A program made the translations under genes and the position numbers. The notes under the pieces are model-generated. The model saw only the letters and a program-made list of their open reading frames with translations, searched no databases and was not told the origin of the DNA. Positions 2,976-57,621 of a stretch of 64,000 bases of DNA are shown here, in pieces. This stretch comes from a phage, in sequence record PQ400055.1; one strand, 5' to 3'. Position 1 is the first letter of the stretch. The number at the start of each line of letters is the position of its first letter.

Positions 2976-3263
2976 TTCTCGATTCTCCATATTATGCAAC
3001 ATAACAAACTGTTGTGCGGCATATTCCCCCATAATAAAACACTGCTTAGAATCCATACATTTACTACGAGCATACATCTTCATAATATGGGCATGAAATT
3101 TCTGGCTGGTTTCAATGGAAGGAGATATTTTGTTTACATATACTATCATTGCACCGTCGAAATAATCAGTAAAATCACCAGTTGGATCATATTGATCAGC
3201 ACTGACACTTCCGACCGCAGTCAAGCATATTGCCGCTGTTAGAGTTTTACGAATAAATGACAT
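2961..3263 (-). CDS. rI: lysis-inhibition regulator RI-like periplasmic protein
   Basis: Signal peptide MSFIRKTLTAAICLTAVGSVSA; DP..F...Y and C....C...G....Q pattern resembles T4 RI as recalled; sits next to tk as in T4. Confidence 0.6.
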   Translation of the reverse strand: MSFIRKTLTAAICLTAVGSVSADQYDPTGDFTDYFDGAMIVYVNKISPSIETSQKFHAHIMKMYARSKCMDSKQCFIMGEYAAQQFVMLHNMENREHEIQ

Positions 3264-3331
3264 AAGTCATTCCCCCAGATTAAAAATATTCAGTTATATT
3301 TATAATCTGGGGCTTTATTTATGATTAACTC

Positions 3332-3928
3332 TTATTTGGTAGTACCGTCAATAAAATGTTTACGGCACACAGAGACATATTTATCCTCTGCACCAACTTC
3401 TATTTGAGCACCATCGCGAATAACATTACCCTCTTTATCTACACGAAGGACCATTGTTGCTTTCTTGCCACAATGACAAATACCCTTCATTTCGACCAGT
3501 TTATCAGCAAATGCCATTAATGCCGCAGATCCTTCAAATAGATTGCCCTGAAAGTCGGTGCGAAGGCCATAGCACAGTACAGGGATATTTGCATCATCGA
3601 CAAGCGCACACAAGCCTAAAACATGCTCTTTAGTCATAAATTGGGCTTCATCTACAAATACAGCATCAGGACGCCATCGATCCGGTCTACGCTTACCTAA
3701 CGATTCACGATAAACCAAATCGAAAAGATCATCCGATTTAGTGAAGGTGATCGCTGGAGCACTTAGACCAATTCGGGAAACAACTTCACTTTCTGAATCT
3801 CGATTATCAATCGCTGGCTTAAGAATTAATACTCGCATATCACGTTCGGTATAGTTATAAGCACTTTGTAACAGAGAAGTTGATTTGCCAGCGTTCATAG
3901 ATGCATAGTAGAAATATAGTTGCGCCAT
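3332..3928 (-). CDS. tk: thymidine kinase
   Basis: P-loop MNAGKST, DEAQF, C-terminal Zn motif CHCGKKA...CRKH; typical TK1-family architecture. Confidence 0.95.
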   Translation of the reverse strand: MAQLYFYYASMNAGKSTSLLQSAYNYTERDMRVLILKPAIDNRDSESEVVSRIGLSAPAITFTKSDDLFDLVYRESLGKRRPDRWRPDAVFVDEAQFMTKEHVLGLCALVDDANIPVLCYGLRTDFQGNLFEGSAALMAFADKLVEMKGICHCGKKATMVLRVDKEGNVIRDGAQIEVGAEDKYVSVCRKHFIDGTTK

Positions 3929-4221
3929 TAATTAATCTCCAAAAATCCAGCAAGACCTAAACCGATATAAGTCCAGATACAAAGGAAAAAGAAGCAAACA
4001 CCCATAGCAAAGATAAATCCTCGTAGTGTCTTTGGATAACCTACCCAATATTCCCGACCATCTTCTAACCGGATCAGCTTATTTCCTTGAGAGTCCATAT
4101 CAATTACAACATGTTTATTTCTGGATTGTAACAGATATTGCTTGACAATCTCAATACCCGCCATAATAACAATAACGAAATTGAAAGTCCACATAACAAG
4201 GTTAATGGTAGTCTCAAGCAT
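3928..4221 (-). CDS. small membrane protein
   Basis: Two hydrophobic segments; start overlaps tk stop. Confidence 0.5.
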   Translation of the reverse strand: MLETTINLVMWTFNFVIVIMAGIEIVKQYLLQSRNKHVVIDMDSQGNKLIRLEDGREYWVGYPKTLRGFIFAMGVCFFFLCIWTYIGLGLAGFLEIN

Positions 4222-4456
4222 TTTCTATCACCTCCACCCAATCAGGCGTTTCCTGAAATACTCCTTCGCCTTCGTGGTGGATGCATCCTTTATTGCTACA
4301 ATACATCCACCAATCCCACATTCCCCACGGTAAACGCTGCATATCGTCGTTACAGCAAGTGAAGACAATAGGCAAACCACATCTAACACATCGGCAGTTT
4401 TCCTTCATGTGAGCGGTATTAGGCTTCTTCATAGATGACTCCAATATAATCGACAT
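4214..4456 (-). CDS. Cys-rich zinc-ribbon-like small protein
   Basis: CRCVRCG...CC...C motifs. Confidence 0.45.
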   Translation of the reverse strand: MSIILESSMKKPNTAHMKENCRCVRCGLPIVFTCCNDDMQRLPWGMWDWWMYCSNKGCIHHEGEGVFQETPDWVEVIENA

Positions 4457-4659
4457 TTACATTTAGGGCAATGCGGTTCTTTAATATAATACCCGTCTGT
4501 CTTTGGAACACTAACAGGAGCGGTTTTTATATTGTATTCCGTGAAACAACGAAAACAAGTTACGTTTTCCACAGACTGACGTTTCACCCAATAACCGGAA
4601 TAGAGGTCATTTTTATTTGTCATATTCCACCACCACAATGTTAATGTCTGGAGTAGCAA
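4429..4659 (-). CDS. Cys-rich zinc-ribbon-like small protein
   Basis: CFRC...CPKCKC motifs. Confidence 0.45.
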   Translation of the reverse strand: MLLQTLTLWWWNMTNKNDLYSGYWVKRQSVENVTCFRCFTEYNIKTAPVSVPKTDGYYIKEPHCPKCKCRLYWSHL

Positions 4660-5068
4660 TATTAATGATTTCTTCTACACATTCCCACTCAAGGCCACCG
4701 ATACCGCAACCGATTTTAGGGATATAGAAAGGCTGTATAGCACCTTCAAAAACATCATTGAGAGTCTCAAATCCTTTCAGGATAGCACCATATTCAGCAT
4801 TTGGACCCGGTCGGAATTGGGTATAGAGATTCACCCCGCACCAGTTATAACCATTAACTTGATGCGTCCAGACACTAAACCCACCCAACTTTTCTACCTT
4901 ACCGCGAGAAGTTTGCTTGTCAATCTCTAACGCTTGCGGGAACTCTTTCGCGATATCCGCAGCAATACCAGCGCCCATAGTATGAAAACAATTACAACCA
5001 TGAATTAAATGACCGTTTCCTTGTTTAAACAGGGCGATGAGATCGCCCTTTACAGTATCAATAATCAT
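4613..5068 (-). CDS. macro-domain (ADP-ribose binding/processing) protein
   Basis: N-terminal GDL...HGCNCFHTMGAGIAADIA and C-terminal IPKIGCGIGGL match the macro-domain signature segments (NAAN..GGGV.GAI and FP.ISTG.YG). Confidence 0.7.
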   Translation of the reverse strand: MIIDTVKGDLIALFKQGNGHLIHGCNCFHTMGAGIAADIAKEFPQALEIDKQTSRGKVEKLGGFSVWTHQVNGYNWCGVNLYTQFRPGPNAEYGAILKGFETLNDVFEGAIQPFYIPKIGCGIGGLEWECVEEIINIATPDINIVVVEYDK

Positions 5069-5083
5069 AATATAAACCTCTCA

Positions 5084-5443
5084 TTAGTCACGGGAAGACA
5101 ACCCAGCCATAAAACGGCTTAACAGTGTGTCGCGATAAGCAAAGCATAATTGCTTATCAGGGGCAGTATCACACAGGTTACGTTTTGTTTTAGCAAAGCT
5201 GGCAATACTCAGATCCCACGCTCGATTTTTTCGTTTTTCGTCTCGACCTTGTTTGTATGCCTCGTCAAGTTCAAGCGCGATAAAATCGCTACACATGTTA
5301 TCATCATCACAGAAGGTTTTAATGATCTTTTTGTTGATCTCAAATCCTTTGTATTCGAACTTTGGATAAGGGCGCTCATTACTAGCAAGCGCACCAGCCG
5401 AGAACATCATAGCAATCATAGCAACTATTGTCAACTTTTTCAT
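5084..5443 (-). CDS. secreted/periplasmic Cys-containing protein
   Basis: Signal peptide MKKLTIVAMIAMMFSAGALA; several Cys. Confidence 0.5.
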   Translation of the reverse strand: MKKLTIVAMIAMMFSAGALASNERPYPKFEYKGFEINKKIIKTFCDDDNMCSDFIALELDEAYKQGRDEKRKNRAWDLSIASFAKTKRNLCDTAPDKQLCFAYRDTLLSRFMAGLSSRD

Positions 5444-28900: not shown

Positions 28901-29002
28901 ACATTCTCTATGTTCCGTGAACTTGTAGATAAACGGTTGAAGGATAATATAGGGAATCCACGCGATCCGAAGAATCCGACACAGAGGAAAATTAATGGCT
29001 AA
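25916..29002 (+). CDS. 7: baseplate wedge protein gp7
   Basis: 1028 aa, synteny. Confidence 0.85.
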   Translation: MIKAPSVTSLTIEKLSANQAYITWDDVGENFFYFVELAETRTRDGEIIPVDELSWVNLGYTAEQNWFEDKNLFPEYYYKFRVAVAAEGFEQSKWVETEEFQTFKTNAYNFSMMREFNLANEFIKEKFTYDNREYVKFNTDLIQASLMKEDFVFSPEYANMTNISNYIVVDENFHEIQDHIEKVCTDINRTMLAEMNGVLYLFERFQPIVKVSNDKGQSWKAYKAFNDRVGNPVSRTCVYQSKTTTYVLGYDRIFYGRQASDTRWSADDVRFSDDTITFAKVGDENDLGFDVEVFGVFSRLTGDTTKYAEAMACSDDYLWVGAKDVIRRIRLKNTPVDTVQGSPTFGEKIFDPDVIRVTGNDKAVIQKMDVIDGKLLVFVTGEVKQRYQDPTKPENVVPSDDAGVYLIGSDGLSFQRVFGNTPQEREYIQHGFSNMSTNGDEVFISHYNHHFESILPDPETAEKYELGEAVKYSQEPTYLTDKKIHQTTFRASYDDLRIWELGPQAYYNEADYTWMRRNGVRVWITNDNRPLVVYPEVIYTQEVDTSGILDQNRVNREVYDKGTVTCYLNNVKFEGFKQYASGVMFHKNTGEIIGFYQFNYRVRDQVGVYWKPTNVAFVAELQNQVREVPWVPVHYDREQDPDLRPLLNKMTPDSFLLENENFRKFSEYYLQFLSDGSGTYYNKLKNLIKNKYPREKDAYEYLWSEMNKRNIYADKNKRDAVVRFFESRKSDFYSTKGVEASYKFLFKLLYNEDVEIEVESQAGLEYDIVVSSTNIDEDIVGRTIYTPTGRANVTYLEREYEGGRLRWRVTIHNLIGRFEEGQVIKSEKTAFEGMILVGVRGKELLSSSIDYINRSRSQYTMKIKSALPVSRYANDVMRFVHPVGFGFIGVTLLTMFINSGLSMKHTETIIQSLKNYKFDSGLPSVYPDRVADLDVDGNIKKDPLTGKALYLTSPLIGEEFPVPPEYDQENSELFHGLKASERRFAMSPLFDQSAVTFSMFRELVDKRLKDNIGNPRDPKNPTQRKING

Positions 29003-29990
29003 TGAAAATAGTGTGATCTATCGCTCAATCATTACTAGCAAATTCAGAACAGAAAAACTTCTGAACTTCTATAATTCTGTAGGCGATGGAGCAAATCAAA
29101 TTACAATTTATGGAACGTTTGGACGTTCGGAGCCGTGGTCAGAAAACGAAAAAGAGGTGGGCTTTGCCCCACCTTATCCGACCGATTCAACGGCTGGTGT
29201 TGTTGACATGTGGACCCATATGATGGGGGCGGTTAAGATTAACAAATCACTTCTTGATGCGGTTATCCCTCGTAAAGATTGGGGTGATACCGGACAGGAT
29301 AACCCGCGCACGTTCTTTATCAATGACATTGTTGTCGTAAACTCAGCACCATATAACCGTACAGATGTTGGTAGCGGCTGGATGGTTTACCGTGTAACCG
29401 ATGTTCCTGATCGCGGTTACTGCTCTATTTCAAGCATTGACGCTAAAGTAGAGTGTTTGAAGCTGGGCGGAAAGTGGACACCTACCCATGAATCAATTGC
29501 GCCACCTGTAGGAAAGGGCGATTCTATTGATATGGGTGATGGATATCGTTGGGAATATCTGTACACAATTCCACCTGATGCGGCGATCAACCGTTGCACC
29601 AATGAACATATTGTTGTACCGTTCCCCGATGAACTGCGACAAGATCCGGCGCGTTGGGGCTATGACAATGTGATCACCTGGTATAATGACTATAATCTGC
29701 TTTATCGGCTGAAAGTAGTAACTTTGCGTTTTCAGGCTTATATGGACTCTGCGCAATTCCCAACTACCGCGTTAGTGGGTAATACTGGTTTCCGTCAGTT
29801 AAGCATTATCCTTAACCCATTGGAAAAGAAAGCACGCCCTAGCGATCCAGACGTTAAAGCGGTTGAAGATAAGTACCGACCGCAAGACTTAGAGCCACAC
29901 TCAGGCGAAATGATCTACATGGAAAACCGACAACCTATCGTTCGGTCATTAGATCAAACAGAACTTGTTTCTGTATTGTTTGAGTTCTAA
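28995..29990 (+). CDS. 8: baseplate wedge protein gp8
   Basis: 331 aa, synteny. Confidence 0.85.
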   Translation: MANENSVIYRSIITSKFRTEKLLNFYNSVGDGANQITIYGTFGRSEPWSENEKEVGFAPPYPTDSTAGVVDMWTHMMGAVKINKSLLDAVIPRKDWGDTGQDNPRTFFINDIVVVNSAPYNRTDVGSGWMVYRVTDVPDRGYCSISSIDAKVECLKLGGKWTPTHESIAPPVGKGDSIDMGDGYRWEYLYTIPPDAAINRCTNEHIVVPFPDELRQDPARWGYDNVITWYNDYNLLYRLKVVTLRFQAYMDSAQFPTTALVGNTGFRQLSIILNPLEKKARPSDPDVKAVEDKYRPQDLEPHSGEMIYMENRQPIVRSLDQTELVSVLFEF

Positions 29991-30004
29991 GTGTATGATT
30001 TAAA

Positions 30005-30038
30005 AGCCAATTCGAGAGAGTTGGCTTTTTCTGTTTTT
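30005..30038 (+). terminator. intrinsic terminator after gp8
   Basis: Hairpin agccaa-ttcgagagag-ttggct followed by TTTTTCTGTTTTT. Confidence 0.65.
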
Positions 30039-30042
30039 GGTG

Positions 30043-30070
30043 TTGACAATCTTGTCTGGTAAGGTATAAT
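30043..30070 (+). promoter_or_regulatory. sigma70-type promoter (TTGACA-N16-TATAAT) driving inserted cassette
   Basis: gTTGACAatcttgtctggtaaggTATAATgc, then GGAGGA SD and ATG at 30100. Confidence 0.7.
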
Positions 30071-30099
30071 GCTCACATCTAAACAACGGAGGATAAATT

Positions 30100-30357
30100 A
30101 TGGCACGTCGTAAATTTACAGATAATTGTGAAGCAATTCAGGTATCCCCTTGCGGTTGGGATGTGATCGCGAACGGTGAAAAGATCGGAGAGATCATCGA
30201 TCATACTCATTCATCACTAGCCGATTACACCGATGAACTATGGGAGGGTATCAACTTCATGAATGACACTAAACGATTCAAGACTATCGACGAAGCTATC
30301 TATTTTGTGTATAATCCAACTTTCGGTATGTGGGGAACTAGAAAATGGCACGCGTAA
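30100..30357 (+). CDS. hypothetical protein (85 aa), cassette gene A
   Basis: ORF with strong SD; begins MAR. Confidence 0.6.
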   Translation: MARRKFTDNCEAIQVSPCGWDVIANGEKIGEIIDHTHSSLADYTDELWEGINFMNDTKRFKTIDEAIYFVYNPTFGMWGTRKWHA

Positions 30358-30677
30358 ACATTAAACTACACTACACAATGGGTAAAGCTAAGTTCCCAAT
30401 GCAAAAGCATTACTATGGTCTACGTGCACAAGATCCAAAACTCTATGGTACTCATTGGTTTTGTAAACATGATAACCAATGGCACACATACGAAGAAATG
30501 CACGAGATGATGAAACAGGGTATTGAATTGAGTTATTCTAATTATGACCATCGTATAACTTGCATTCGAAAATTGAAACGATGGATTCGTAAGAATCCGC
30601 AATTTAAAAACTTTGTGTTCTTTATGTCTCATGTTTATTTGGGACATAGCGTTACCGTCACAGCAAAGGTTAAATAA
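30345..30677 (+). CDS. hypothetical His/Cys-containing protein (110 aa), cassette gene B
   Basis: ORF translationally coupled to A; begins MAR. Confidence 0.6.
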   Translation: MARVNIKLHYTMGKAKFPMQKHYYGLRAQDPKLYGTHWFCKHDNQWHTYEEMHEMMKQGIELSYSNYDHRITCIRKLKRWIRKNPQFKNFVFFMSHVYLGHSVTVTAKVK

Positions 30678-31516
30678 TGGCACGACTTTCTAAACAAGAA
30701 CAAAAATTACACGATCGGGTGATGGAGTTGATTAATTCAGATCGCCCATTGACATATGAAGAAAAAGAATTTTGCTATAATAACTATCATGGCGATGGTC
30801 TAGGCGGTTCAGGTGCATTCTTTACCCCAGAAGGGCTTGCATGGGATTTTACCATCGATGCACATTGCACAGGAAAAGTATTAGATCTTTGTGCTGGGAT
30901 CGGTCTCTTATCTTTTTGTATGTTACATCGTTGTAAGCCAGAAAAGATCGTATGCGTCGAACTCAATCCAGAATTTGCGCGGATTGGCAAGCGACTATTA
31001 CCGGAGGCAGAATGGATCACCAGCGATGTATTCGAATTTGAGTCAAACGAAAAATTCGATGTGGTGATCAGCAATCCACCTTTCGGGAAAATCAATACAA
31101 CCAACACAAAGGATGTATTTGAGTACACTGGCGGCGAATTTGAATTTAAGGTTATGACATTAGGCCAGAAGTTTGCCGATGTTGGCTATTTTATTGTTCC
31201 TGTGGGTTCCGCTGGTTTTGCTTATTCCGGCAGACCTTATTATGACGGGACCATGAAGTCTAATAAATATCTAAAATGGAGCAAACAAACTGGTTTGGTG
31301 ACTTATGCCGGATGTGGGATCGATACATCAATCTATCGCGATGAATGGCACAGTACCAACGTTTTAACAGAAGTGGTTGAGGTTCGGTATTACGAGAAAG
31401 AAGCCGTAGAAGCGCCTAAATCACGCCCTAACGAACAAATAGAAGAAAGTAAGGAGATTACCTTACCGAAACAGGAAAGCGAGTCTGGGACGCTCTCAGA
31501 TTTGTTTGACATTTAA
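30677..31516 (+). CDS. SAM-dependent methyltransferase (amino-MTase type, NPPF motif)
   Basis: Motif I VLDLCAGIGLL, motif IV VVISNPPFG; start overlaps B stop (TAATG). Confidence 0.75.
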   Translation: MARLSKQEQKLHDRVMELINSDRPLTYEEKEFCYNNYHGDGLGGSGAFFTPEGLAWDFTIDAHCTGKVLDLCAGIGLLSFCMLHRCKPEKIVCVELNPEFARIGKRLLPEAEWITSDVFEFESNEKFDVVISNPPFGKINTTNTKDVFEYTGGEFEFKVMTLGQKFADVGYFIVPVGSAGFAYSGRPYYDGTMKSNKYLKWSKQTGLVTYAGCGIDTSIYRDEWHSTNVLTEVVEVRYYEKEAVEAPKSRPNEQIEESKEITLPKQESESGTLSDLFDI

Positions 31517-31520
31517 TTAT

Positions 31521-31547
31521 AAGCCGTCCTCGTGGGCGGCTTTTTTG
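31521..31547 (+). terminator. intrinsic terminator after cassette
   Basis: Hairpin gccgtcc-tcgtg-ggcggc followed by TTTTTT. Confidence 0.6.
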
Positions 31548-31556
31548 TATGTATTT

Positions 31557-31564
31557 TATAAATA
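31557..31564 (+). promoter_or_regulatory. T4-type late promoter TATAAATA
   Basis: Exact TATAAATA upstream of gp9. Confidence 0.6.
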
Positions 31565-31591
31565 ATACATCATAACATGAGGAATTAAACA

Positions 31592-32446
31592 ATGGCACAA
31601 GTTCCAAAGAAAAGAATAGACACAGGTACTGTCGGCAATCCATCGACTGGCGATATCTTATATGATGGCGGTAATAAAATTAACGATAACTTTGATTCAA
31701 TATATGACGCATTTGCTGATCAGCGGTTTAAAGACGTAGACCACGGCGTGGGAAGAATGGTTATTCATGCAACCGGATACTATCAGAAGCATCCACGTCA
31801 AAGCTACGCTGGTTCTGCTGTTGAGATTGGGAGTCTACACGATATCGATACAACTCAAGGCGCACTTATTGCTATTCTACCTAAAGCAAAGGTCGGTGAG
31901 GGTGTTGTATTCATAAATAGTAACGGTAGCCTTTCAACGACGACACCGCTCAATATTCGAACTCAAGCAGGTGATTCTATTAGCGGTTATTCCGGTGATG
32001 CTACAATAACACAACCATTTTCAAAAGTCACTGTTTGGTGTACTGCCGTTGAAGGTAGTCGCGTAACATGGCGATTGGGTATCGAAAGTATGTTTACCGA
32101 TACAACAACGCCATTAGATAAAACAGTTAACGTAACTGGAGTAGCAACAAACGTTGCTATTGCCGCAAAAACAGAATACGTTTCCATCAAATTATTAACT
32201 ACCGCTAGCAATACATCCGGTTCAAAAATGCGTTCAAGTGAAACGCTACTGATGATTGATTCTAAAGCCGGAAAAGTTTATGCGACGGAATATGCAGTTT
32301 TGCAGAAGACAGAAGATGAACTATACACGGTTCGTTATTTCATCGGTTCCGGCGATAAAGTATATGCAGAGTATAAGGCTACTGGCGAAAATATTCGTTT
32401 AGCAGTTAAAGCCGTAGACACTATTAAAATCGGGGTTGCTACATGA
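31592..32446 (+). CDS. 9: baseplate wedge/tail-fibre socket protein gp9
   Basis: MAQVPKKRIDTGTVGNPSTGDILYDGGNKIN matches T4 gp9 N-terminus as recalled. Confidence 0.9.
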   Translation: MAQVPKKRIDTGTVGNPSTGDILYDGGNKINDNFDSIYDAFADQRFKDVDHGVGRMVIHATGYYQKHPRQSYAGSAVEIGSLHDIDTTQGALIAILPKAKVGEGVVFINSNGSLSTTTPLNIRTQAGDSISGYSGDATITQPFSKVTVWCTAVEGSRVTWRLGIESMFTDTTTPLDKTVNVTGVATNVAIAAKTEYVSIKLLTTASNTSGSKMRSSETLLMIDSKAGKVYATEYAVLQKTEDELYTVRYFIGSGDKVYAEYKATGENIRLAVKAVDTIKIGVAT

Positions 32447-39087: not shown

Positions 39088-39828
39088 ATGTTTAACAACA
39101 CTCTTTTTGCTCGCATTGAATCGCAAAAGGATTATGAGAATACACGACAAACAGAGATTCTTAATCCTTATGTGAACTTTCACAAATATACAAATACTCA
39201 GACGTTAGCCGACGTTATGGTCGCCGAAGCTATTCAGATGCGAGGTGTAGAATTATATTACATCCCTCGTGAATTTGTCAAGCCAGATATGATCTTTGGT
39301 GAGGATGTTCAAAGCAAATTTACTAAAGCATGGAAATTTGCGGCGTATATTAACTCATTTGATGGGTATGAAGGAGCGGGTAATTTCTTCTCTAGTTTCG
39401 GGTATCAAGCTAATGATGAATTAACTTTTACGGTTAACCCCAACCTATTCAAACATCAAGTAGATGATCAAGAGCCAAAATCAGGTGACTTAATTTATAT
39501 TCCGATGAGTAATGATTTATTTGAAATTAATTACGTTGAGCCATATCAGCCGTTTTTTCAGGCTGGCAAAAATGCCATGCGTAAAATTATTGCAGAGAAA
39601 TTCGTGTATAGCGGTGAGGAATTGCGACCAGAATTACAACGCAATGAGGGAATTAATGTTGATGAGTTTGCGGATCTGGATCTTGCACCGATCACTAATC
39701 TGGACGGGTTAACAGATATCAACCTAGATCAGTACAAAGAAGATAAGCAATTCAGAAGCGAAGGACAAGATTTTATTGATCCGTTTGATCCTATTAATGG
39801 CAAGGGTTCACCTTTCGCCGATTTTTGA
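39088..39828 (+). CDS. 14: neck protein gp14
   Basis: 246 aa, synteny. Confidence 0.8.
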
Positions 39829-40688
39829 TAAATACTCATAAACAAGGGGGTCAAATGTTCGGTTGGCACTATAATTCGTCAATTAGACGGTATATTGTAT
39901 TGCTGGGTAATTTATTCTCCGGCGTACAAATTAAAAGGGTGCGTAGTGACGGTGAGCGGTTTATTAAAGTTCCTATCACCTACGCAAAGAAAGAAAAATT
40001 CATGATGAGTCTGGACAAATATAACAATATCTCAAGTGAGGAAGACGTAGCAAAGGTAGAAACTATTTTACCGCGTATGTGTCTTTCTTTGATTGATATG
40101 ACATACGCCCAGAACTTTAAAACCAATATTGCAAATAAGACAGTACCAAAATATACGGCTGATGGAATCAGGAGCGTAACACAATATAATCCTGTACCAT
40201 ATAAGTTTACTTTCGAGTTAGGGATTTATACGCGTAACGAAGATGATATGTTTCAAATAATTGAACAGATTCTTCCTTACTTCCAGCCTCATTTTAACTG
40301 TAAGATTAAAGAACTACACGGTAATGATGTATGGATTGATCGAGATATTCAGGTCACAATTAGTTCTATTACTCCAGATGAACAGGTAGGCGAAGATAAG
40401 TTTTCTCGTCGTCGTCTTGAGTGGACCATTATGTTTGAGTTCATCGGGTTTATCTATCCTCCAGCCACCGACGTTAAGGGGGAAATTAGAACGATTTATC
40501 TTGATTTTCATGCTAATTCTCGTGAATTAAATCCTAGCGGTAATTTTGAATCTGTGGATCATGAAGTTGTTAAACGTGATGTTGAGCAAGAAGAATGGGA
40601 CGGAACTATCAAAGAATCATATTCTAGTGATATTCCAATACCAGTTGCACCGACTCCACCGGGTCCACGTATTGTAAGAGAATTTTAA
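39825..40688 (+). CDS. 15: tail sheath stabiliser/terminator gp15
   Basis: 287 aa, synteny. Confidence 0.8.
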
Positions 40689-40701
40689 GAGGTAATTTAT
40701 T

Positions 40702-44310
<3,609 letters not shown>

Positions 44311-56211: not shown

Positions 56212-56331
56212 ACTTCACCTCATACATTCATAAACACAACAACGAATAGGACAGTAACAGTTATTAAAGCCATTTTCAACCCCATATTCATAATATTTTC
56301 CTCATAAGGTAACGCCCTGTTGATGTGTGCC

Positions 56332-56359
56332 ATTATAAGCCACTAAATCACACTGTCAA
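56332..56359 (-). promoter_or_regulatory. sigma70-type promoter (TTGACA-N16-TATAAT)
   Basis: Reverse strand cTTGACAgtgtgatttagtggctTATAATggc. Confidence 0.65.
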
Positions 56360-56364
56360 GCACT

Positions 56365-56394
56365 AAAAACAAAAAAGCCACCCCGAAGGATGGC
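56365..56394 (-). terminator. intrinsic terminator after hoc
   Basis: Hairpin gccatcc-ttcg-gggtggc followed by UUUUUUGUUUUU on minus strand. Confidence 0.65.
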
Positions 56395-56406
56395 TGATAG
56401 ATTTCA

Positions 56407-57621
56407 TTAAGCAGGATGCGTTTCACGAATGCGTAGAACTCGCTCTAACGTCTCTCGGTCCAGTTTATGTAACTTTTTGGACTGATACATGAAACCATTG
56501 CGAGATTCCATGCAAGTGCAATCACTATATTTTTCTTCCGCTGCCGCGATTGTCTCCAGATCTTTGGCGTACTTGCTGGTTGAATAAACTTCTCGGTTAC
56601 GCCACTCTAACCCAGCCTCATTGAATTTAACAATCTCGTCAAATACCCACCATCCAATGTAGATAAATGAAGTTTTGCGCCACGGGATCGGGTGTACGTA
56701 ACGAAACATTTTAACAACTTCCATTGAACATTTTCTACTTGTACTTGTTGCAACTTCTACTGTTTCATCTTCGATCTGTTGATATAGTTTAGCAACACAC
56801 CAGAATTTGGCTGTGTCATCGTAAGTAGCACTCTCTTTGAACAGATGACCGTCTGGCATGATAGAAAATCCTTCCTGTGCTTCGCCGACCTCACTACCGA
56901 TCAGAGTCGGTGGCATTTGCCCTTCGCGCTGCAAATACCAGTTATATTTGATCGTCAAATTAGGCATACCGCTAGAATCGCCTACAATGTTCTCTGACAC
57001 AACATAATTAAGTGATATCTCATTACCTAGTGCCACGGTCTTTGATTCCACCACATCCTGATCTACGTTCATTGTTGCCAGCATGATTTTAGTCGATGTG
57101 CTAGCGGCTGAATCTTCCGACTCACCCCACACTTTTACAGTATACACGCCGTTTTTATCTGCTGTAAATTCTTGGATCGTAATATCCTTTTTTGTGTCTA
57201 TAACTTCTTCGCCCTTACTCCAACTATAATGTAGTTCATAGTTGTCTGATGGAGTCTTCCCACCCGAAAATTTTACTGTTGCATGTAATTCTACGTTTGT
57301 TTGTGATGATACGTAGAAATGCTGCGGTTCGGTGATATTTACGATTAATTCAGCTTCTTCCATGAGGAAAACTTCAGATTCTACTGATGTCATCGTATCG
57401 GTATCCTGTACCGTTACTTTATAGCTACCCGCATTTTCACTTGTTGCGTCTGCTACAGTTAGCGTAGCTGTGCTATTTTCATGCGGTTGGTCGTCTTTTG
57501 TCCATGTATATGTCAAATTGCTGGGTAATGGTTCGTCACCCGCTACAGTCGCCGTTAAGGTGAAACCATCTCCAGCAAGAAAACATCTTTTGTCAGATTT
57601 AATTGATACTGTGAAAGTCAT
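56407..57621 (-). CDS. hoc: Hoc-like outer capsid decoration protein with Ig-like domains
   Basis: Tandem Thr/Ser-rich beta-rich (Ig-like) modules plus C-terminal domain; size and position as T4 hoc. Confidence 0.7.
   Translation of the reverse strand: MTFTVSIKSDKRCFLAGDGFTLTATVAGDEPLPSNLTYTWTKDDQPHENSTATLTVADATSENAGSYKVTVQDTDTMTSVESEVFLMEEAELIVNITEPQHFYVSSQTNVELHATVKFSGGKTPSDNYELHYSWSKGEEVIDTKKDITIQEFTADKNGVYTVKVWGESEDSAASTSTKIMLATMNVDQDVVESKTVALGNEISLNYVVSENIVGDSSGMPNLTIKYNWYLQREGQMPPTLIGSEVGEAQEGFSIMPDGHLFKESATYDDTAKFWCVAKLYQQIEDETVEVATSTSRKCSMEVVKMFRYVHPIPWRKTSFIYIGWWVFDEIVKFNEAGLEWRNREVYSTSKYAKDLETIAAAEEKYSDCTCMESRNGFMYQSKKLHKLDRETLERVLRIRETHPA

What the first reader, a model, noticed from the sequence alone, without database searches (positions are those of the whole stretch)
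29991..31550. Promoter- and terminator-bounded three-gene cassette with a SAM methyltransferase inserted between baseplate genes 8 and 9
Seen in sequence: after gp8 there is a terminator hairpin (30005-30038), a strong sigma70-like promoter TTGACA-N16-TATAAT (30043-30070), three translationally coupled ORFs each beginning MAR (85 aa, 110 aa, 279 aa), a second terminator (31521-31547), and then the TATAAATA late promoter of gp9. The third ORF has MTase motif I (VLDLCAGIGLL) and motif IV (VVISNPPFG). Established knowledge: T4 has genes 8 and 9 adjacent, and NPPF/NPPY motifs mark amino-group (N6-A/N4-C or protein-Gln) methyltransferases. Inference: an early-expressed moron, possibly DNA-modifying anti-restriction with two uncharacterised partner proteins.
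Basis: partly seen in the sequence, partly recalled or inferred. Interest (0 to 1): 0.68.

Follow-up and report, generated by a model that had tools for sequence, protein, structure and literature searches.

The report
Phage methyltransferase with polymerase-like clamp tail
Between two baseplate genes of an RB49-like coliphage sits an early-expressed gene cassette whose methyltransferase ends in almost the same short peptide that the phage's DNA polymerase is thought to use to grip the sliding clamp, which suggests the enzyme rides the replication machinery to methylate new phage DNA.

Summary
The window is a Krischvirus (RB49-like) phage. Between gp8 and gp9 lie a terminator hairpin, a perfect sigma70 promoter, three overlapping ORFs, a second terminator and the gp9 late promoter. 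All 59 Krischvirus records found carry this arrangement, and it is already annotated. The hairpin-plus-promoter unit is a published element type, the PeSL.

ORF1 and ORF2 are not MTase partners. They are ORFans shared only with rV5-like phages that lack the MTase. A related phage carries the MTase alone in the same slot.

The new point is the MTase tail. After a ~245-aa adenine-N6-type catalytic domain come a disordered linker and the terminus TLSDLFDI. RB49 DNA polymerase gp43 ends in SLTDLFDI, which corresponds to T4's clamp-binding peptide. Across the family the same core carries one of three endings:
- no tail (elements integrated in enterobacterial chromosomes);
- T4-type tails (T4-like phages);
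- QL[S/D]LF beta-clamp motifs (lambdoid and other phages).

Best reading: an orphan DNA adenine MTase tethered to the sliding clamp, methylating nascent phage DNA to evade restriction. Binding, substrate and target site are untested.

The parts
28995..29990 (+). gene 8, baseplate wedge subunit (upstream context)
   Evidence: Pfam Phage-Gp8 E 1.4e-143 and phrog_977
30002..30038 (+). Intrinsic terminator: 12-bp stem with a 4-nt loop (30002-30029), then a T-run. This is the stem-loop half of the PeSL.
   Evidence: Folding gives -15.6 kcal/mol, z -4.27. Annotated as a terminator in GEC-3S. The structure is kept with a different stem sequence in L094.
30043..30070 (+). Early sigma70-type promoter TTGACA-N16-TATAAT. 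This is the promoter half of the PeSL.
   Evidence: 12/12 match. There are 6 perfect sites in the window against 0.11 expected. Annotated as a promoter in GEC-3S. A near-identical hairpin/T-run/-35 layout occurs at 56332-56359 on the minus strand. PeSL definition in PMC2839356.
30100..30357 (+). ORF1, 85 aa, an ORFan of unknown function
   Evidence: phrog_16603. Found only in Krischvirus plus 3 Vequintavirus records, and in 1 cluster of the 5.8-billion-protein database. Frameshifted by an 11-bp deletion in the RB49 reference.
30345..30677 (+). ORF2, 110 aa, an ORFan of unknown function, with a mosaic patch at 30375-30560
   Evidence: phrog_12630. Found in Krischvirus and about 30 Vequintavirus records. 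The exhaustive HMMER search gave 4 hits. Two alleles differ over a ~200-bp patch. AF2 pLDDT is 60.9, too low to use.
30677..31411 (+). MTase catalytic domain (aa 1-245). GAFFTP is aa 46-51 (nt 30812-30829), motif I VLDLCAGIG is aa 68-76 (nt 30878-30904), and motif IV NPPFG is aa 133-137 (nt 31073-31087).
31412..31489 (+). Disordered acidic linker (aa 246-271)
   Evidence: pLDDT below 50 over aa 246-271. Length and sequence vary between relatives, and the linker is absent in the tailless relatives found in enterobacterial chromosomes.
31490..31516 (+). C-terminal peptide TLSDLFDI plus the stop codon: the putative gp45 sliding-clamp-binding epitope
   Evidence: RB49 gp43 ends in SLTDLFDI. T4 gp43 ends in SLDFLFG. 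The last 14 nt are identical to the 3' end of gene 43. The properties of the gp45-binding epitope are described in PMC2988020.
31521..31548 (+). Intrinsic terminator closing the early cassette
   Evidence: 9-bp stem with 6 GC pairs, then a T-run. Folding gives -15.9 kcal/mol, z -4.49. Annotated in GEC-3S.
31557..31564 (+). T4-type late promoter TATAAATA for gene 9
   Evidence: Exact match. The same arrangement occurs in L094.
31592..32446 (+). gene 9, baseplate wedge / tail-fibre connector (downstream context)
   Evidence: Pfam T4_gp9_10_N 1.4e-40 and phrog_967

Best explanation
The region is a PeSL-framed early-gene cassette lodged in the late baseplate operon of a Krischvirus.

Regulation (inferred from sequence; not shown experimentally for this copy):
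- The hairpin after gene 8 stops late read-through from genes 6-8.
- The consensus sigma70 promoter drives ORF1, ORF2 and the MTase straight after infection, using the host RNA polymerase.
- The second terminator ends that transcript.
- Gene 9 restarts from its own late promoter.

The MTase:
- It is an orphan, TRD-less enzyme of adenine-N6 (amino-MTase) fold, with GAFFTP, motif I and NPPFG in that order.
- Its catalytic domain is followed by a flexible acidic linker and an 8-residue hydrophobic/acidic terminus, TLSDLFDI. This copies the terminus of the phage's own DNA polymerase, SLTDLFDI.
- In T4-type phages such termini are what gp43, gp33 and gp55 use to dock on the gp45 sliding clamp.

Inferred mechanism: the MTase binds gp45 on replicating phage DNA and methylates adenines in nascent DNA as it is made. 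That would protect the unmodified-cytosine genome of these phages from host restriction.

ORF1 and ORF2 are unrelated ORFan passengers, a small module exchanged with rV5-like coliphages. They are not subunits of the MTase.

Shown here: the anatomy, conservation, fold class, tail identity, family-wide tail pattern and genomic contexts. Inferred: clamp binding, DNA as the substrate, and the anti-restriction benefit.
For: Architecture and conservation. PeSL definition, with experimental promoter and terminator activity of other PeSLs in phi1/RB49: PMC2839356.

Tail identity:
- The MTase ends in ...GTLSDLFDI* and RB49 gp43 ends in ...ASLTDLFDI*.
- T4 gp43 ends in ...ASLDFLFG*.
[quoted passage not shown] It says they are interchangeable and sit on divergent flexible linkers, and that the RB69 clamp was co-crystallised with the 11 C-terminal polymerase residues.
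- The AF2 model gives a globular domain (aa 1-245), a disordered segment (aa 246-271) and a short terminal helix.

Specificity of the tail:
- A terminal-motif scan of 114 kb of Krischvirus DNA hits only gp43, gp55 and the MTase among real genes.
- In Lw1 and KP27 loci a similar scan hits only gp43, gp33, gp55 and the MTase.
- RB49 Dam has no such tail.

Family-wide tail swapping on one catalytic core:
- 32 of 76 IMG/VR loci end in Qx[SD]LF-type beta-clamp motifs, 12 end in T4-type tails, and 32 have no tail or an unclassified one.
- With a different anchor, 168 proteins split into 23 beta-type, 26 T4-type, 117 with no tail and 2 other.
- The beta-clamp consensus QL(S/D)LF is given in PMC9690074.
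- The tail type matches the replication system. A QLDLF-tailed member sits directly after lambda-type O and P replication genes. T4-type-tailed members sit between helicase gp41 and primase gp61.
- A tailless member (P0037, Citrobacter) is the last gene of an integrated element. About 25 tailless copies lie at the ends of IMG/VR contigs.

DNA as the substrate:
- Neighbours in beta-type loci are MT-A70 and C5 DNA MTases and a DnaB helicase.
- PADLOC DNA-MTase profiles match from residue 34-46, including GAFFTP.

ORF1/ORF2 independence.
Against: - No binding, methylation or phenotype data exist for this protein.
- There is no recognisable target-recognition domain, so site specificity is unexplained.
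- Only Krischvirus and its near relatives copy the gp43 tail closely. Slopekvirus and Pseudotevenvirus MTases end in ...LFTF(T/R)IE, which differs from their own gp43, gp33 and gp55 tails. Clamp binding is less secure there.
- Some T4-related jumbo and Aeromonas phage versions have no tail.
- HPLC/MS of Krischvirus TB34 DNA reported no modified nucleosides. That paper never addresses methyladenine, even for its Dam-positive T4 standard.
- RB49 already has a Dam homologue, so the need for a second adenine MTase is not obvious.
Confidence: 0.6

Rival explanations
1. The MTase modifies RNA or protein rather than DNA. Candidate targets are rRNA m6A or m2G, tRNA, or release-factor/ribosomal-protein glutamine, which would retune host translation early in infection. 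On this view the C-terminal peptide has some other role.
For: - Several GenBank records name it 'release factor glutamine methyltransferase (prmC)', and the RB49 record notes similarity to an rRNA guanine-N2 MTase.
- The best Pfam hit is MTS.
- NCBIfam PrmC scores 8.2e-10 and RsmC 1.4e-7.
- There is no target-recognition domain.
Against: - The NCBIfam scores are far below the curated cut-offs: 38.6 against 199 for PrmC and 31 against 295 for RsmC.
- A sliding-clamp-type tail makes sense only on DNA, and the tail changes with the replication system.
- Relatives sit in replication modules and among DNA MTases.
- PADLOC DNA-MTase profiles give the strongest and longest matches.
Confidence: 0.15
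2. The three proteins form one functional unit. ORF1 and ORF2 would be specificity or regulatory subunits of the MTase, analogous to HsdS or to C-proteins.
For: The three ORFs overlap, share one promoter and one terminator, and co-occur in all 59 Krischvirus records. The MTase lacks its own target-recognition domain. In Lw1 and KP27 the MTase is also preceded by two small overlapping ORFs.
Against: - The ORF1-ORF2 pair occurs in Vequintavirus without any MTase homologue.
- The MTase stands alone in the gp8/gp9 slot of L094 and L095, and hundreds of relatives lack these ORFs.
- The two small ORFs upstream of the MTase in Lw1 show no similarity to ORF1 or ORF2.
- ORF1 is frameshifted in the RB49 reference.
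- ORF2 has been partly replaced by recombination while the MTase stayed 98% identical.
Confidence: 0.08
3. The tail does bind the clamp, but the point is to interfere with the clamp rather than to deliver the enzyme. It could compete with other gp45 or beta-clamp clients to modulate replication, late transcription or host replication. Alternatively the clamp or a clamp-bound protein could be the methylation substrate.
For: - The tail is nearly identical to the polymerase tail, so it would compete for the same site.
- Other phage and toxin proteins use clamp-binding motifs to redirect or block the clamp: MuC and SocB.
- NPPF/NPPY enzymes include protein-glutamine MTases.
Against: - All catalytic motifs are invariant across tailed and tailless members, so catalysis is under selection independently of the tail.
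- Tailless members exist in large numbers.
- Association with other DNA MTases suggests a shared DNA-protection role.
Confidence: 0.07
4. The tail resemblance is a coincidence, or a by-product of recombination between the 3' ends of gene 43 and the MTase gene, with no function.
For: The motif is only 8 residues long. The last 14 nt of the two genes are identical, which could reflect a recombination junction. PeSLs flank gene 43 in RB49 and phi1 and mediate shuffling.
Against: - The tail is conserved while the linker diverges: P0002 is 68% identical and ends in TLTDLFDI, P0004 ends in SLSMFDI and P0003 in TLDFVDFSEI.
- Independent lineages carry a different, equally canonical clamp motif (20 distinct beta-type tails, 19 of them Qx[SD]LF and one QLDMW) on unrelated linkers.
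- The 33 nt upstream of the final 27 nt show no resemblance between the two genes.
Confidence: 0.1

Closest known systems
PeSL (promoter-early stem-loop) regulatory cassettes of RB49/phi1 (Arbiol et al. 2010, PMC2839356; Comeau et al. 2014, PMC4122927)
   Same: A stem-loop terminator followed by a consensus sigma70 promoter, placed intergenically in front of ORFans. The unit is repeated in the genome. [quoted passage not shown]
   Different: This particular cassette is fixed in the genus rather than variable. The paper's main text never mentions the gp8/gp9 site or the methyltransferase.
gp45 sliding-clamp ligands of T4-type phages: C-terminal epitopes of gp43, gp33 and gp55 (reviewed in PMC2988020)
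   Same: A short hydrophobic and acidic peptide at the extreme C-terminus, on a divergent flexible linker. Seven of the 8 tail positions are identical or conservative matches to the same phage's gp43 tail (6 identical).
   Different: The carrier is a methyltransferase, which is not among the gp45 ligands listed in that review. Binding has not been tested. In Slopekvirus and Pseudotevenvirus the MTase tail (LFTFTIE) differs from the gp43, gp33 and gp55 tails.
Eukaryotic DNMT1-PCNA coupling (PMC9690074)
   Same: A DNA methyltransferase carrying a clamp-binding motif, so that newly replicated DNA is methylated behind the fork.
   Different: DNMT1 is a large multidomain C5-cytosine maintenance enzyme with a PIP box. 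This is a 279-aa amino-MTase with a C-terminal phage-clamp or beta-clamp peptide. The two are unrelated in sequence and the feature evolved independently.
Gamma-class N6-adenine DNA MTases (HsdM, M.TaqI, M.BseCI, MmeI, Eco57I) and small m6A RNA MTases (METTL5, PH1948)
   Different: There is no target-recognition domain or HsdS partner. Sequence identity is only 14-25%. The protein falls below the curated cut-offs of all named NCBIfam families.
T4/RB49 Dam, the classical phage orphan adenine MTase
   Same: A phage-encoded orphan MTase with no cognate nuclease, presumed to act against restriction. RB49 encodes one as well.
   Different: It belongs to a different MTase family, sits at a different locus, and has no clamp-type tail.
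Phage Mu MuC, a phage protein with a beta-clamp-binding motif (bioRxiv 10.1101/2025.01.04.631326)
   Same: A phage protein that recruits the host beta clamp through a canonical clamp-binding motif. This parallels the QL[SD]LF-tailed members of the MTase family.
   Different: MuC is a transcription activator, not an enzyme that acts on DNA bases.

Membership tests
PeSL regulatory cassette (Arbiol 2010) | Promoter identical or near-identical to the E. coli sigma70 consensus | tested here: met
   TTGACA-N16-TATAAT, 12/12. There are 6 perfect sites in the window against 0.11 expected.
PeSL regulatory cassette (Arbiol 2010) | [quoted passage not shown] | tested here: met
   12-bp stem at 30002-30029, 13 nt upstream of the -35. 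z -4.27.
PeSL regulatory cassette (Arbiol 2010) | Repeated motif, intergenic, immediately upstream of an ORFan | tested here: met
   A near-identical layout occurs at 56332-56359 on the minus strand. ORF1 is an ORFan.
PeSL regulatory cassette (Arbiol 2010) | Demonstrated promoter and terminator activity | not testable with these tools
   Activity was shown for other PeSLs by lacZ reporters, not for this copy.
Amino-group (N6-adenine type) SAM methyltransferase, gamma-like motif order | Motif I (FxGxG-type SAM loop) and motif IV (N/D)PP(F/Y/W), with motif I before motif IV and an upstream (F/Y)xTP | tested here: met
   GAFFTP is aa 46-51, DLCAGIG aa 70-76 and NPPFG aa 133-137. G46-F49, P51, L71-G76, N133-P134 and F136-G137 are invariant and T50 and P135 near-invariant (>=90%) in 45 sequences.
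Amino-group (N6-adenine type) SAM methyltransferase, gamma-like motif order | Class I Rossmann MTase fold closest to N6-adenine enzymes | tested here: met
Amino-group (N6-adenine type) SAM methyltransferase, gamma-like motif order | Target-recognition domain or specificity subunit | tested here: not met
   Only about 245 structured residues, of which 209-229 align to catalytic modules. No HsdS-like neighbour.
Amino-group (N6-adenine type) SAM methyltransferase, gamma-like motif order | Methyl transfer to DNA adenine | not testable with these tools
   Needs biochemistry or a methylome.
gp45 sliding-clamp ligands (gp43/gp33/gp55-type C-terminal epitope) | Short hydrophobic and acidic peptide at the extreme C-terminus, similar to the gp43 tail of the same phage | tested here: met
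   TLSDLFDI* against gp43 SLTDLFDI*. T4 reference is SLDFLFG*. The scan hits only gp43, gp55 and the MTase.
gp45 sliding-clamp ligands (gp43/gp33/gp55-type C-terminal epitope) | Epitope joined to the body by a divergent, unstructured linker | tested here: met
   pLDDT below 50 for aa 246-271. Linker length and sequence vary among relatives.
gp45 sliding-clamp ligands (gp43/gp33/gp55-type C-terminal epitope) | Physical binding to gp45 | not testable with these tools
Bacterial beta-clamp clients (QL[S/D]LF motif), for the non-T4 relatives only | C-terminal pentapeptide matching QL(S/D)LF | tested here: met
   32 of 76 loci have this motif. There are 20 distinct tails, for example QLSLF, QLDLF, QADLF and QASLF. 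Not present in the window protein itself.
PrmC/HemK protein-glutamine MTase (the name used in several GenBank records) | Score above the curated family threshold | tested here: not met
Restriction-modification system | Cognate restriction endonuclease encoded next to the MTase | tested here: not met
   The neighbours are gp8, two ORFans with no PADLOC or Pfam hits, and gp9. The MTase is an orphan.

The most novel reading that the evidence does not exclude
A widespread family of small phage DNA adenine methyltransferases works as sliding-clamp clients. The same TRD-less catalytic core has repeatedly acquired whichever clamp-binding peptide fits the replisome its phage uses. In T4-like phages this is a gp43-like tail for gp45. 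In lambdoid and other phages that use the host replisome it is QL[S/D]LF for the beta clamp. Copies in integrated elements have no tail. Methylation would then be physically coupled to the replication fork. This would make the MTase a fourth class of gp45 ligand and the first prokaryotic or viral counterpart of DNMT1-PCNA. The clamp might also substitute for a DNA-recognition domain.
Probability: 0.5. Interest if true: 0.78.

Novelty: new variant of a known kind. Interest (0 to 1): 0.64.

Why it matters
Krischvirus phages are reported to have unmodified cytosines, although one recent report (SAP) finds modified cytosines, and are used in phage therapy collections. How they cope with host restriction is therefore a practical question.

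If the MTase really rides the sliding clamp, it shows a simple way for a phage to methylate each new genome copy before host nucleases can reach it. It would add a new client to the well-studied T4 gp45 'tool-belt'. It would also be a prokaryotic and viral parallel to replication-coupled methylation by DNMT1-PCNA.

The family-wide swapping of tails (gp45-type, beta-clamp-type, none) is a ready-made natural experiment. It could also serve as a predictor of which clamp a phage uses.

The idea can be tested directly with a synthetic 9-mer peptide, purified gp45 or DnaN, and long-read methylomes.

The cassette architecture itself (PeSL, early genes, terminator, late promoter) is ordinary and already described.

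Tried and rejected
- **ORF1/ORF2 versus the small ORFs upstream of the MTase in Lw1.** BLASTP found no similarity, so these are not distant homologues.
- **ORF1 and ORF2 function.** Pfam, NCBIfam and PADLOC gave nothing; the only hit was WWE at E 0.06, below threshold. The indexed search found only the same narrow family. The exhaustive HMMER profile search of 1.8 billion representatives gave 4 hits.
- **ORF2 structure.** The AF2 model has pLDDT 60.9, too poor for a fold search, so none was run.
- **Gene conversion between gene 43 and the MTase 3' end.** 21 of the last 27 nt are identical and the last 14 nt are identical, but nothing upstream resembles the other gene. This neither shows nor excludes recombination.
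- **Compositional evidence for recent horizontal origin.** Cassette GC is 0.36-0.42 against 0.41 for the window, so there is no signal.
- **Strict co-variation of MTase and gp43 tails outside Krischvirus.** Only partial. They share a D/N-L-F core, but the MTases end in FTF(T/R)IE while gp43 ends in LFGD(D)W.
- **TB34 HPLC/MS as evidence against DNA methylation.** Rejected as uninformative, because the paper never reports or mentions methyladenine.
- **First tail-classification script.** Its domain-end pattern was too strict and dropped most beta-type proteins. It was redone with a GxGxD anchor.
- **Sandbox file access.** Some loci fetched in parallel calls reached the Python sandbox late, so searches failed and built-in tools were used instead.
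- **Literature.** Searches for a phage or bacterial clamp-binding MTase found nothing relevant. The library lacks most subscription journals, so this is weak evidence of novelty.
Full report
**What the window is.** The 3.45-kb stretch from gene 8 to gene 9 matches 59 phage records at 90-99% identity, 58 of them over at least 80% of its length. All are Krischvirus, the RB49-like T4-type coliphages: RB49, phi1, JSE, GEC-3S, TB34 and others. Every one carries the same insert between genes 8 and 9. The GEC-3S record already annotates the same promoter, -35/-10 signals and both terminators. T4 itself has genes 8 and 9 separated by only 63 bp. The insert is fixed in the genus rather than variable, and its GC content (0.36-0.42) matches the genome's (0.41).

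**Checking the observation.** All elements are present.
- gp8 ends at 29990.
- A 12-bp hairpin lies at 30002-30029, followed by a T-run. It folds at -15.6 kcal/mol with z -4.27, and 0 of 200 shuffles fold as well.
- TTGACA-N16-TATAAT lies at 30043-30070, the only 12/12 site in the 8 kb scanned. It is one of 6 perfect sites in the 64-kb window, against 0.11 expected.
- GGAGG is followed by ORF1 (30100-30357), ORF2 (30345-30677, 13-nt overlap) and ORF3 (30677-31516, TAATG overlap).
- A second hairpin lies at 31521-31542 with a T-run (z -4.49).
- TATAAATA is at 31557-31564, and gp9 starts at 31592.

The 'MAR' starts look incidental. gp8 and gp9 start MAN and MAQ. The rV5-like ORF1 homologue starts MSLRK. 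MA(K/R) is simply the conserved N-terminus of the MTase family.

**The regulatory frame is a known element.** Arbiol et al. (PMC2839356) described about 50 'PeSLs' in each of RB49 and phi1. These are strong sigma70-like promoters joined to stem-loops that act as terminators. Most lie in hyperplastic regions upstream of ORFans. [quoted passage not shown] The unit after gp8 fits this description. A second copy with almost the same hairpin, T-run and -35 layout lies at 56332-56359 on the minus strand. The paper's main text does not mention this site or the methyltransferase.

**ORF1 and ORF2 are passengers, not partners.** Both are ORFans.
- They have PHROG families of unknown function and nothing in Pfam, NCBIfam or PADLOC.
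- The 5.8-billion-protein index holds one cluster for ORF1 and five for ORF2.
- An exhaustive profile search of 1.8 billion representatives gave only 4 hits for ORF2.
- Outside Krischvirus they occur only in rV5-like Vequintavirus phages. There they are adjacent, in the same order, and behind their own hairpin and promoter. The FV3 depositors flagged them as RB49/phi1-like among rV5-like genes.
- Those phages have no homologue of the MTase.
- A metagenomic T4-like phage whose gp8 is 88% identical to the window's carries the MTase alone in the same slot. The frame is the same: hairpin, TTGACA-N17-TATAAT, MTase, terminator, TATAAATA, gp9.
- In the RB49 reference an 11-bp deletion frameshifts ORF1. 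ORF2 also carries a ~200-bp mosaic patch (62-78% identity) inside otherwise 95-100% identical DNA.
- The two small ORFs that precede the MTase in Lw1 are unrelated to ORF1 and ORF2. The corresponding ORFs in KP27 were not compared.

**What kind of methyltransferase.** ORF3 belongs to phrog_3820, labelled 'DNA methyltransferase' (4.7e-117).
- It has GAFFTP (aa 46-51), motif I DLCAGIG and motif IV NPPFG, all invariant or nearly so in 45 diverse relatives.
- Pfam gives MTS, Methyltransf_25 and Eco57I above threshold.
- PADLOC DNA-MTase profiles match best and furthest toward the N-terminus: mad2 at 1.4e-16 from residue 34, and Type II MTases from residue 45.
- The PrmC and RsmC models behind several GenBank names score far below their cut-offs: 38.6 against 199 and 31 against 295.
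- The AlphaFold model is confident for residues 1-245 (pLDDT 84.7, pTM 0.81).
- There is no separate target-recognition domain and no nuclease neighbour.

It is therefore an orphan, minimal amino-MTase. The chemistry is most likely N6-adenine. The fold alone does not settle DNA versus RNA.

**The C-terminal tail.** After residue 245 the model is disordered (aa 246-271, pLDDT below 50) and ends in a short helix. The last eight residues are TLSDLFDI.
- RB49 DNA polymerase gp43 ends in SLTDLFDI, and this terminus is 100% conserved in at least 58 Krischvirus records.
- T4 gp43 ends in SLDFLFG.
[quoted passage not shown] It says these 'can be freely interchanged' and that the epitope sits on a divergent unstructured linker. 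It also notes that the RB69 clamp was co-crystallised with the 11 C-terminal polymerase residues.
- RB49 gp55 ends in SLDQFYEIEN.
- A simple terminal-motif scan of the window plus 50 kb of RB49 hits only gp43, gp55 and the MTase among real genes.
- A similar scan of Lw1 and KP27 loci hits only gp43, gp33, gp55 and the MTase.
- RB49's other MTase, Dam, has no such tail.

**Family-wide pattern.** The catalytic core is shared by at least 1725 proteins.
- Among 76 full-length IMG/VR loci, 12 have T4-type tails, 32 end in Qx[S/D]LF followed by a few residues, and 32 have no tail or an unclassified one. Examples of the second group are QLSLFDAA, QLDLFGMAA, QADLFGVAA and QMSLFDAA.
- A second classification of 168 proteins gave 26 T4-type (23 distinct), 23 beta-type (20 distinct), 117 with no tail and 2 other. 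Linkers are Pro/Ala/Glu-rich, 10-31 aa long in the beta-type tails, and unrelated in sequence, while the terminal motif is kept.
- QL(S/D)LF is the consensus beta-clamp-binding motif of bacteria (PMC9690074).

The tail type follows the replication system.
- A QLDLF-tailed member lies directly after lambda-type O and P genes, in a phage type that uses the host replisome.
- Other beta-type members lie beside a DnaB helicase, or inside arrays of MT-A70 and C5 DNA methyltransferases.
- In Pseudotevenvirus Lw1 and Slopekvirus KP27 the tailed MTase lies between helicase gp41 and primase gp61.
- The tailless Citrobacter homologue P0037 is the last gene of an integrated element, next to core chromosomal genes, and about 25 tailless copies lie at the ends of ~30-kb IMG/VR contigs.

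This pattern is hard to explain unless the tails are clamp-docking peptides and the substrate is DNA.

**Limits of the evidence.**
- Outside Krischvirus and its near relatives (TLTDLFDI, SLSMFDI, TLDFVDFSEI), T4-like MTases end in ...[L/N]F[T/D]F[T/R/V]IE. Their own gp43 ends in SLN(D/T)LFGD(D)W, gp33 in TLD(D/G)FM and gp55 in TLE(M/D)FL. They share a D/N-L-F core but not the register, so the partner there is uncertain.
- Jumbo and Aeromonas phage versions have no tail.
- Nothing here shows binding, methylation or benefit.
- HPLC/MS of Krischvirus TB34 DNA found no modified nucleosides. That study never considers methyladenine, even for its Dam-positive T4 standard, so it does not bear on sparse m6A.
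- RB49 is generally treated as having unmodified cytosines.

**Comparison with what is known, and novelty.**
- The cassette frame is a member of the PeSL class.
- The enzyme is an orphan amino-MTase of a known PHROG family.
- Clamp-binding tails are well known for gp43, gp33 and gp55, and for beta-clamp clients.
- Clamp-coupled DNA methylation is known for eukaryotic DNMT1-PCNA.
- A phage protein using a beta-clamp motif is known for MuC.

I could not find any description of a phage or bacterial methyltransferase as a clamp client. The library is limited, so this is weak evidence. I rate the finding as a new variant of known kinds.

**Verdict.** The cassette itself is ordinary and already annotated. 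The interest lies in the polymerase-mimicking tail and the family-wide tail swapping, which make a specific, cheaply testable prediction.

| Claim | Confidence |
|---|---|
| Cassette anatomy | high |
| DNA adenine MTase | about 0.7 |
| Clamp tethering in Krischvirus | about 0.65-0.7 |
| Anti-restriction purpose | about 0.5 |
| Composite explanation | 0.6 |

Noticed in passing
L005 (MW748999.1 vB_EcoM_Skers) 3246-5395: In this Krischvirus record ORF2 is followed directly by the terminase large subunit. About 9 kb (MTase and gp9 to gp16) is missing, and the record is 154.8 kb against about 164 kb for its relatives. This is probably a misassembly or a defective genome.
   Followed up: no
window 30247 / L097 1938-2184 (RB49 NC_005066): The RB49 reference has an 11-bp deletion that splits ORF1 into two short CDSs, RB49p140 and RB49p141. 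Either ORF1 is dispensable in the lab strain or this is an old sequencing error.
   Followed up: partly
window 30375-30560: A ~200-bp mosaic patch inside ORF2 is only 62-78% identical to RB49, while flanking DNA is 95-100% identical. Two ORF2 alleles (98-100% and about 72% aa identity) circulate among Krischvirus genomes. This suggests recombination or diversifying selection on this ORFan.
   Followed up: partly
window 56300-56420, minus strand: A second PeSL with almost the same layout: hairpin GCCATCC-TTCG-GGGTGGC, then TTTTTTGTTTTTAGTGC, then TTGACA-N16-TATAAT. Four other perfect sigma70 promoters lie at 39252, 55767, 57930 and 62341.
   Followed up: partly
L003 (Lw1 NC_021344.2) 3001-3786: The annotated start of the Lw1 MTase (locus position 3046) lies 15 codons downstream of the family-conserved MAKLTK start at 3001. 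The deposited CDS is probably truncated at its N-terminus.
   Followed up: no
L061 and L078 (IMG/VR contigs), MTase C-termini: Two relatives end in ...(A/T)LDFGDWE(Q/A)(S/T)A. This fits neither the QL[SD]LF nor the Krischvirus pattern, but it resembles the Slopekvirus gp43 tail SLNDLFGDW. It may be a third type of clamp motif.
   Followed up: no
literature, PMC13390438 (Krischvirus SAP OZ034687 vs TB34 OX001802; both match window 28995-32446 at 98.8%): Two Krischvirus isolates 99.96% identical in sequence are reported to differ completely in DNA modification. SAP has glucosyl-hydroxymethyl-cytosine and TB34 has canonical bases, although the genus lacks the known hmC and glucosyltransferase genes. 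The authors leave this unexplained.
   Followed up: no
L006 (RB49) 39922-40734: RB49 encodes a separate Dam-type MTase with no clamp-like tail, so Krischvirus carries two adenine-type orphan MTases.
   Followed up: partly
L012-L033 (IMG/VR ~30-36 kb contigs) and L098/L099: Tailless homologues sit at the extreme end of prophage-like contigs. In Citrobacter chromosomes they lie at the boundary of an integrated element next to yliH, a GSDH-family gene, gst and a PBP5-type carboxypeptidase gene. One exact Citrobacter sequence (P0037) is on record in 887 contigs.
   Followed up: partly
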